This document shows, piece by piece, positions 9,871 to 10,398 of a stretch of DNA of 64,000 bases. The translations under genes and the position numbers were made by a program. The stretch comes from Escherichia phage vB_EcoM_F1: sequence record NC_054912.1. One strand, 5' to 3'. Numbering within the stretch: the stretch's first letter is position 1; each line of letters starts with the position of its first letter. The notes below the pieces were generated by a model that ran no database searches, was not told the DNA's origin, and worked only from the letters and a program-made list of their open reading frames with translations.

Positions 9871-9945
9871 TTTATTTTCCTAATTAATTTTGATGAGGTA
9901 ATAGTATCACTACCTCATCAGCATGTAAACAACTTTGTGAAATTA
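9871..9945 (-). promoter_or_regulatory. early promoter plus stem-loop cassette, copy B (GTTTAC-N18-TACTAT)
   Basis: GTTTAC 9930-9925; TACTAT 9906-9901 inside the loop of 9 bp stem gatgaggta/tacctcatc. Confidence 0.5.
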
Positions 9946-10398
9946 TTTTAAATCATCTGCCCAATCGAGTTTAAGAGGCTCTTTGTATTCACGGTCAAGT
10001 ACAACCGGAATTTGTACATCACCGCTAAATGATAAGGGCCCAACATTATAAGACAATGTTATATGCGGTGTGTAATCATCAAAATCATGTGTAGCACCTA
10101 GTGCCCGCGCATACATGTGTCGACAGCGCAGATATTCAGAATCTAGCACAAGTACAAGAGTCGATCCATCTTGCGTTTTCCATACTTCTAAATGCCCAGA
10201 AGAAGCTACTTCAAAACTTCCACTCGATGGAACATATGGAACATTTACTCTCGAATAACATATGGTCGAATGAATTTTTTCTCTAGGAACTGGATTAGGA
10301 ACACGTAAAGAGCGCTGGAGTTCTTCCAGCGCGTCAAGTGTTAATTCTGAAAACTTAGCTGCTACATAAAGACCCGTTGAAAAGTCTTTAAATTCCAT
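9943..10398 (-). CDS. 57B: 2H phosphoesterase-like protein (LigT-like), T4 57B position
   Basis: 151 aa; two H-x-T-x motifs (H43-STI and H112-ITL) at LigT-like spacing. Confidence 0.65.

What the first reader, a model, noticed from the sequence alone, without database searches (positions are those of the whole stretch)
9943..10398. 2H phosphoesterase (LigT-like) gene next to the tRNA cluster
The 57B-position ORF has two H-x-T-x motifs (H43-S-T-I and H112-I-T-L) at the spacing seen in LigT-type 2H phosphoesterases, which act on 2',3'-cyclic or 2'-phosphate RNA ends or on ADP-ribose phosphate derivatives. Together with RNA ligase 2 and the phage tRNA set it could belong to RNA repair directed against host anticodon nucleases, or to nucleotide-signal degradation.
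Basis: partly seen in the sequence, partly recalled or inferred. Interest (0 to 1): 0.4.

Follow-up and report, generated by a model that had tools for sequence, protein, structure and literature searches.

The report
Known phage anti-CBASS enzyme Acb1
This ORF is the already characterised phage T4 gene 57B (Acb1), a small two-histidine phosphodiesterase that destroys the cyclic-nucleotide alarm signals of the bacterial CBASS defence; it is not an RNA-repair enzyme, so the finding is real but ordinary.

The parts
9943..10398 (-). acb1 (T4 gene 57B orthologue) coding sequence, 151 aa plus stop. GenBank MZ170041.1 FN1NEW_0147, annotated there as 'hypothetical protein'.
   Evidence: ORF. 151/151 identical to T4 NP_049750.1 residues 2-152. 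Pfam PF23474 Acb1, E=2.6e-60, profile 1-144 of 144. PDB 7T26 Acb1, E=4e-62. Source record annotation.
10261..10272 (-). First catalytic motif, H43-S-T-I (T4 H44/T46).
   Evidence: Read from the sequence. H43 is invariant and T45 at least 90% conserved in 43 homologues. Part of the catalytic tetrad in PMC9117128.
10054..10065 (-). Second catalytic motif, H112-I-T-L (T4 H113/T115), followed by S116-Y117. ThpR/LigT has an essential Arg where Y117 sits.
   Evidence: Read from the sequence. H112 and T114 are invariant and Y117 at least 90% conserved. ThpR HxTxxR motif.
9946..9969 (-). C-terminal lid, residues 144-151 (T4 145-152), including W146 (T4 W147). It closes over the bound cyclic nucleotide.
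   Evidence: Identity to T4 Acb1. Lid described in PMC9117128. Lid deletion abolishes activity in the Doherty 2025 preprint. Low pLDDT at 148-151 in the ligand-free model fits a flexible lid.
10396..10400 (-). 57A stop / acb1 start overlap, TAATG (one shared base), which suggests translational coupling. In T4 the junction reads ATGATGG; a G-to-A change here removes T4's first Met and causes the one-residue numbering offset.
   Evidence: DNA alignment with T4 and sequence. Coupling is an inference.
10398..10640 (-). Gene 57A (tail-fibre chaperone), the upstream co-oriented neighbour. Context only, not functionally part of Acb1.
   Evidence: Synteny and annotation in T4 and the source record.
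9580..9870 (-). ipI (internal protein I, a nuclease inhibitor), the immediate downstream neighbour and a second anti-defence gene.
   Evidence: Pfam PF11634 IPI_T4, E=1.3e-51. T4 synteny.
9891..9920 (-). Perfect 13-bp hairpin in the 72-nt spacer after the acb1 stop codon. It overlaps a sigma-70-like promoter match (9929..9901) ahead of ipI. There is no T-run, so it is not a canonical intrinsic terminator, and its role was not established.
   Evidence: RNA fold -17.4 kcal/mol, z=-3.3. Promoter-like match. Conserved in T4 apart from one base upstream of the stem.
10996..11003 (-). T4 late-promoter consensus TATAAATA inside gene 1, upstream of 57A/acb1. A MotA-box-like TTTGCTTTA lies nearby at about 10894..10898. 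These are consensus matches only.
   Evidence: Pattern search. Published onset of cGAMP-cleaving activity at about 15 min of T4 infection fits middle/late expression.

Best explanation
The ORF encodes Acb1 (anti-CBASS protein 1), the product of T4-type gene 57B. It is a compact, metal-independent 2H phosphodiesterase. During infection the host's CBASS cyclase (CD-NTase) makes cyclic di- and trinucleotide second messengers that would switch on a cell-killing effector. Acb1 binds these rings in a U-shaped pocket: aromatic residues Y11, W73, F106 and W146 (this protein's numbering) stack on the bases, E140 reads the adenine N6, and the C-terminal lid (residues 144-151) closes over the ligand. The strained ligand's 2'-OH attacks the 3'-5' phosphodiester, with acid-base catalysis by the H43/T45/H112/T114 tetrad. 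This gives a 2',3'-cyclic phosphate intermediate that is then hydrolysed to a linear 3'-phosphate product (for example GpAp). The effector is therefore never activated and the phage completes its cycle. Shown here: sequence identity to the tested T4 protein, family membership, conserved catalytic and ligand-contact residues, the 2H fold and synteny. Taken from published experiments on the identical T4 protein: substrate range, products and phenotype. Inferred: that this phage expresses the gene in the same way, probably translationally coupled to 57A.
Against: Nothing found here contradicts this. Three caveats apply. No experiment has been done on this particular phage. The allele lacks T4's annotated first Met; most homologues are also 151 aa, so this is probably irrelevant. 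Acb1 is promiscuous: it also cleaves 2'3'-c-di-AMP, so CBASS signals may not be its only physiological substrates.
Confidence: 0.97

Rival explanations
1. RNA end-healing enzyme. The 2H protein would process 2',3'-cyclic phosphate or 2'-phosphate ends on tRNAs cut by host anticodon nucleases, working with RNA ligase 2 and the phage tRNA set.
Against: rnlB is 33.7 kb away, so there is no operon or neighbourhood link. T4 repairs PrrC-cleaved tRNA-Lys with Pnk and Rnl1 (PMC1484252). T4 Δacb1 grows normally without CBASS and loses all cGAMP-cleaving activity. According to the authors, the Acb1 pocket accommodates only cyclic di- and trinucleotides. The essential Arg of ThpR's HxTxxR is a Tyr here. 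The 'RNA ligase' label is inherited from the old '2'-5' RNA ligase' name for LigT, and I found no assay behind it in the papers read.
Confidence: 0.02
2. Generic LigT/ThpR-family housekeeping phosphoesterase acting on small molecules such as ADP-ribose 1''-2'' cyclic phosphate or 2',3'-cNMPs, with no defence-related role.
Against: The hit is below Pfam's cutoff (13 bits against 27). The family is specific to phages. A conditional CBASS phenotype has been demonstrated. The product is a 3'-phosphate rather than the 2'-phosphate of ThpR.
Confidence: 0.01
3. Chance ORF with a coincidental pair of H-x-T motifs.
For: About 0.75 H-x-[ST] matches are expected by chance in a protein of this composition, so two matches alone are not significant.
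Against: The ORF is conserved in 553 phage records. Only synonymous differences separate it from T4. It makes a full-length family match and gives a confident 2H-fold model.
Confidence: 0

Closest known systems
Phage T4 Acb1 (gene 57B, NP_049750.1), founding member of Pfam PF23474
   Same: The amino-acid sequence is identical over all 151 residues. The genomic position (ipI-57B-57A-1) is the same, as are the catalytic tetrad, the ligand-contact residues and the C-terminal lid.
   Different: It lacks T4's annotated first Met, because a G-to-A change at the 57A/57B junction turns ATGATGG into TAATGG. It also has 9 synonymous codon changes. No functional difference is expected.
Erwinia phage FBB1 Acb1 (PDB 7T26 / 7T27)
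   Different: It is an orthologue from a different T4-like phage and differs in sequence outside the active site.
Burkholderia phage BCSR5 2H PDE-9 (PDB 9Q2G / 9Q2Y)
   Different: Identity is only about 20%. Its lid is N-terminal rather than C-terminal. It is poor at cleaving 2'3'-c-di-AMP and so does not trigger Panoptes, whereas T4 Acb1 does when over-expressed.
E. coli ThpR / LigT (PDB 4QAK, 5LDI), RNA 2',3'-cyclic phosphodiesterase
   Same: It has the 2H fold with two HxT motifs and uses metal-independent His acid-base chemistry on a cyclic phosphate.
   Different: Identity is 12-16% and the Pfam 2H/LigT model is below threshold. ThpR has HxTxxF/HxTxxR with an essential Arg; here the motifs are HSTICY/HITLSY. 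ThpR acts on RNA>p ends and gives a 2'-phosphate, whereas Acb1 opens cyclic oligonucleotides and gives a 3'-phosphate. Acb1 is also shorter (151 against about 176 aa) and has a lid.
Eukaryotic-virus 2H phosphodiesterases (penguinpox cGAMP PDE 9BKQ; MHV ns2 4Z5V; rotavirus VP3 4RPT/5AF2)
   Different: Their substrates differ (2'3'-cGAMP, 2'-5' oligoadenylate), they infect eukaryotic hosts, and there is no significant sequence similarity.

Membership tests
Acb1 family (Pfam PF23474, anti-CBASS protein 1) | Full-length match to the curated family model above its gathering score | tested here: met
   202.7 bits against a cutoff of 27, E=2.6e-60, profile positions 1-144 of 144.
Acb1 family (Pfam PF23474, anti-CBASS protein 1) | HxT/HxT catalytic tetrad (T4 H44, T46, H113, T115) | tested here: met
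   H43, T45, H112 and T114 are present. They are invariant or at least 90% conserved in 43 homologues. The one-residue offset is explained by the junction change.
Acb1 family (Pfam PF23474, anti-CBASS protein 1) | Ligand-contact residues (T4/FBB1 Y12, W74, F107, W147, E141) and the C-terminal lid (145-152) | tested here: met
   Y11, W73, F106, W146, E140 and residues 144-151 are present, through 100% identity to T4 Acb1.
Acb1 family (Pfam PF23474, anti-CBASS protein 1) | Compact 2H fold that superposes on a solved Acb1 structure | tested here: met
Acb1 family (Pfam PF23474, anti-CBASS protein 1) | Cleaves CBASS cyclic di- and trinucleotides, and the phage needs it only on CBASS+ hosts | not testable with these tools
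   Shown experimentally for the T4 protein, which is sequence-identical over residues 2-152 (PMC9117128; 10.1101/2025.11.20.689424). Not assayed for this phage.
2H phosphoesterase superfamily | Two H-x-T/S-x motifs on a pseudo-symmetric fold, with structural similarity to established 2H enzymes | tested here: met
LigT / ThpR subfamily (2'-5' RNA ligase / RNA 2',3'-CPDase) | Match to the sequence model (PF13563 2_5_RNA_ligase2) above threshold | tested here: not met
   13 bits against a cutoff of 27, E=0.11, and only residues 80-122 align. NCBIfam gives no hit.
LigT / ThpR subfamily (2'-5' RNA ligase / RNA 2',3'-CPDase) | Extended motifs HxTxxF and HxTxxR with an essential Arg (PMC4201822) | tested here: not met
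   The motifs here are H43-STIC-Y48 and H112-ITLS-Y117. Tyr117 replaces the Arg and is at least 90% conserved in the family.
LigT / ThpR subfamily (2'-5' RNA ligase / RNA 2',3'-CPDase) | Hydrolyses RNA 2',3'-cyclic phosphate ends to a 2'-phosphate | not testable with these tools
   Published Acb1 products carry a 3'-phosphate (GpAp[3']). I found no report of Acb1 being tested on RNA>p ends in the papers read.
T4 tRNA repair pathway (counter to the PrrC anticodon nuclease) | Genetic or physical linkage to the repair ligase, and a requirement on prr+ hosts | tested here: not met
   rnlB is 33.7 kb away. The pathway's known components are Pnk and Rnl1. A requirement on prr+ hosts could not be tested here.

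The most novel reading that the evidence does not exclude
Acb1 might moonlight on RNA. Its second half-reaction hydrolyses a 2',3'-cyclic phosphate to a 3'-phosphate, so it could also act on short RNA>p fragments or on other adenosine-containing signals. That would give a role beyond CBASS, for example clearing products of host RNases or of type III CRISPR cA3 signalling. None of the papers read tested RNA>p ends, and the enzyme is reported to be among the most promiscuous viral 2H PDEs.
Probability: 0.05. Interest if true: 0.35.

Novelty: already known. Interest (0 to 1): 0.08.

Why it matters
Acb1 matters biologically: one small enzyme lets T4-like phages escape many CBASS systems, and hosts have in turn evolved decoy-signal systems (Panoptes) that can sense such enzymes. 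All of this was established in 2022-2025 on a protein identical to this one, so the window adds no new biology. The practical value is annotation. GenBank MZ170041.1 lists the gene as 'hypothetical protein', and RefSeq T4 and PHROG 755 still call it 'RNA ligase', which is misleading. It should be named anti-CBASS protein Acb1 (cyclic oligonucleotide phosphodiesterase).

Tried and rejected
(1) Single-sequence AlphaFold gave pLDDT 37.9 and was unusable, so I discarded it and did not use it as evidence about the fold. The run with a 43-sequence alignment gave pLDDT 89.5. (2) NCBIfam gave no hit, as expected for a library of bacterial and archaeal families. (3) The terminator scan found no intrinsic terminator after the gene. 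The 13-bp hairpin at 9891..9920 has no T-run, so I do not call it a terminator. (4) I considered linkage to RNA ligase 2 and rejected it on distance, 33.7 kb. (5) I considered linkage to the tRNA cluster: it is the conserved T4 gene order with four genes in between, and nothing functional ties the two together. (6) I considered the PHROG and RefSeq 'RNA ligase' label and rejected it as an inherited name, since no ligase evidence appeared in the papers read. (7) I did not scan PADLOC, because it holds defence proteins rather than anti-defence proteins. (8) I did not use the metagenome or genome locus scans or the 1.84-billion-protein representative search, because the identity was already unambiguous.

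Full report
WHAT IS THERE. The coordinates delimit a real minus-strand ORF, 9943..10398, with an ATG start and 151 codons. The motif pair alone is not significant: for this composition about 0.75 H-x-[S/T] matches are expected by chance.

IDENTITY OF THE WINDOW AND THE GENE. The first 25 kb of the window are 100% identical to Escherichia phage vB_EcoM_FN (MZ170041.1) positions 64001-89000. This is a Tequatrovirus from poultry sewage. In that record the ORF is FN1NEW_0147, 'hypothetical protein'. Gene order matches T4: tRNA cluster - trna.2 - trna.3 - trna.4 - ipI - 57B - 57A - 1 - 3 - 2. The protein is 151/151 identical to residues 2-152 of T4 gp57B, NP_049750.1. The two coding sequences differ at 9 codons, all synonymous. 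The one-residue length difference comes from a single G-to-A change at the 57A/57B junction: T4 reads ...GAATGATGGAA and this phage reads ...GAATAATGGAA. That change turns the 57A stop from TGA into TAA and removes T4's first ATG. H43 and H112 here are therefore T4 H44 and H113. Most homologues are also 151 aa.

FAMILY AND FOLD. Pfam places the protein in PF23474 'Anti-CBASS protein Acb1' at E=2.6e-60, with 202.7 bits against a cutoff of 27 and the whole profile covered. The generic 2H model PF13563 (2_5_RNA_ligase2) reaches only 13 bits against a cutoff of 27. The best solved relative is Acb1 of Erwinia phage FBB1 (7T26/7T27, E=4e-62). A search of 5.8 billion proteins returned 78 relatives, and all but one fragment carry PF23474. 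The named ones come from T4-like phages of enterobacteria, and UniRef labels them Acb1. In an alignment of 43 of them, reaching down to 28% identity, H43, H112 and T114 are invariant. T45, Y11, E140 and Y117 are at least 90% conserved.

HOW IT WORKS. The sequence is identical to the T4 protein, so the published biochemistry applies directly. Hobbs et al. (Nature 2022, PMC9117128) purified the 3'3'-cGAMP-degrading activity from T4-infected cells and identified gene 57B as its source, naming it Acb1. [quoted passage not shown] It does not degrade cGG, cA4 or 3'2'-cGAMP. The FBB1 structures show a U-shaped pocket in which Y12, W74, F107 and W147 stack on the bases. E141 reads the adenine N6, and the C-terminal residues 145-152 close as a lid. 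The scissile phosphate sits over the H44/T46/H113/T115 tetrad. Cleavage is 3' of adenosine, metal-independent and two-step through a cyclic phosphate, and it ends in a 3'-phosphate product, GpAp. All of these residues are present here with a -1 offset.

In vivo, H44A/H113A is inactive. Acb1 expression rescues phage P1 from a type III CBASS. T4 Δacb1 grows normally without CBASS but shows a >300-fold defect on hosts with active CBASS. Transposon sequencing of T4 independently found 57B/acb1 dispensable on K-12 and depleted on a CBASS host. Later work shows that T4 Acb1 is among the most promiscuous viral 2H phosphodiesterases. It also cleaves 2'3'-c-di-AMP, and when over-expressed it triggers the Panoptes decoy-signal system. 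Deleting acb1 from T4, however, did not change Panoptes defence.

EXPRESSION CONTEXT (INFERRED). The acb1 ATG shares one base with the 57A stop codon (TAATG), which suggests translational coupling. A T4 late-promoter consensus TATAAATA (11003..10996) and a MotA-box-like TTTGCTTTA (about 10898) lie inside gene 1 upstream. These are consensus matches only. They fit the published onset of activity at about 15 min of infection. After the stop codon there is a perfect 13-bp hairpin at 9891..9920 (-17.4 kcal/mol, z=-3.3). It has no T-run and overlaps a sigma-70-like promoter match ahead of ipI. I did not establish its role.

THE RNA-REPAIR READING. This reading is not supported, for six reasons.
- rnlB (RNA ligase 2) is at 44114..45115, 33.7 kb away.
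- The tRNA genes are 1.4 kb away with four genes in between, which is simply the conserved T4 order.
- T4's known answer to the PrrC anticodon nuclease is Pnk plus RNA ligase 1 (PMC1484252).
- The only published phenotype of acb1 depends on CBASS.
- The pocket is reported to accept only cyclic di- and trinucleotides.
- The ThpR/LigT subfamily is defined by HxTxxF/HxTxxR with an essential Arg and gives a 2'-phosphate product (PMC4201822). Here the second motif is HITLSY, with a family-conserved Tyr, and the product is a 3'-phosphate.

The protein therefore has the 2H fold and 2H chemistry but is not a LigT-family member. The 'RNA ligase' label on PHROG 755 and on the RefSeq T4 record is a legacy of the old '2'-5' RNA ligase' family name. 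I found no test of Acb1 on RNA>p ends in the papers read. A minor moonlighting activity therefore cannot be excluded, and I put it at about 5%.

VERDICT. The gene is the already characterised anti-CBASS phosphodiesterase Acb1. Novelty: already known. Interest: low. The one useful outcome is an annotation correction.

Noticed in passing
outside the window: PDB 8HDS chain A (cyanophage Pam3 'portal protein', 621 aa), residues 482-616: The Acb1-family profile hits the C-terminal ~135 residues of this portal protein chain at E=1.7e-10. Both motifs are kept (..LHvTIaYS.. and ..sHIsLS..). This looks like an Acb1-like 2H domain fused to a virion portal protein, which would deliver or position an anti-signalling enzyme in the capsid.
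   Followed up: no
window 9580..9870 (-): The gene immediately downstream of acb1 is ipI (Pfam IPI_T4 'nuclease inhibitor', E=1.3e-51). Two anti-defence genes therefore sit side by side, as in T4.
   Followed up: partly
window 871..1356: T4's denV-ipII-ipIII block (about 1.4 kb) is replaced here by a single 157-aa ORF at 883..1356 (-) of family DUF7412 / PHROG 3155 'internal virion protein'. tblastn with T4 DenV and IPIII finds nothing anywhere in the 64-kb window, and IPII matches only over its N-terminal 75 residues at 31%. Internal-protein cassettes appear to have been swapped, and denV is missing from its usual place.
   Followed up: partly
window 6825..7193: Relative to T4 there are about 370 extra bases between the rnaD-like stable-RNA region and tRNA-Arg. 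They hold a 116-aa ORF (6825..7175, -) of PHROG 3355, function unknown. ORFs 4872..5402 and 5964..6437 (-) also have no T4 counterpart and no Pfam family.
   Followed up: partly
window 7194..8549 and 8158..8283: ARAGORN and Rfam both find the eight T4-type tRNA genes (Arg, Ile/Met-CAT, Thr, Ser, Pro, Gly, Leu, Gln). The GenBank record MZ170041.1 annotates none of them here and instead has a 'hypothetical protein' CDS (8158..8283) lying on top of tRNA-Ser/tRNA-Pro, which is probably a spurious gene call.
   Followed up: yes
window 10396..10400: A single G-to-A change relative to T4 turns the 57A stop from TGA into TAA and removes T4's annotated first Met of 57B. Most family members are 151 aa, which suggests that the functional start in T4 may also be its second ATG.
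   Followed up: partly
outside the window: protein cluster P0001: The cluster that is 99% identical to T4 Acb1 carries an NCBI name from an 'Enterococcus faecalis' assembly, on a 3-kb contig. This is most likely T4-like phage DNA contaminating that assembly rather than a real Enterococcus gene.
   Followed up: no
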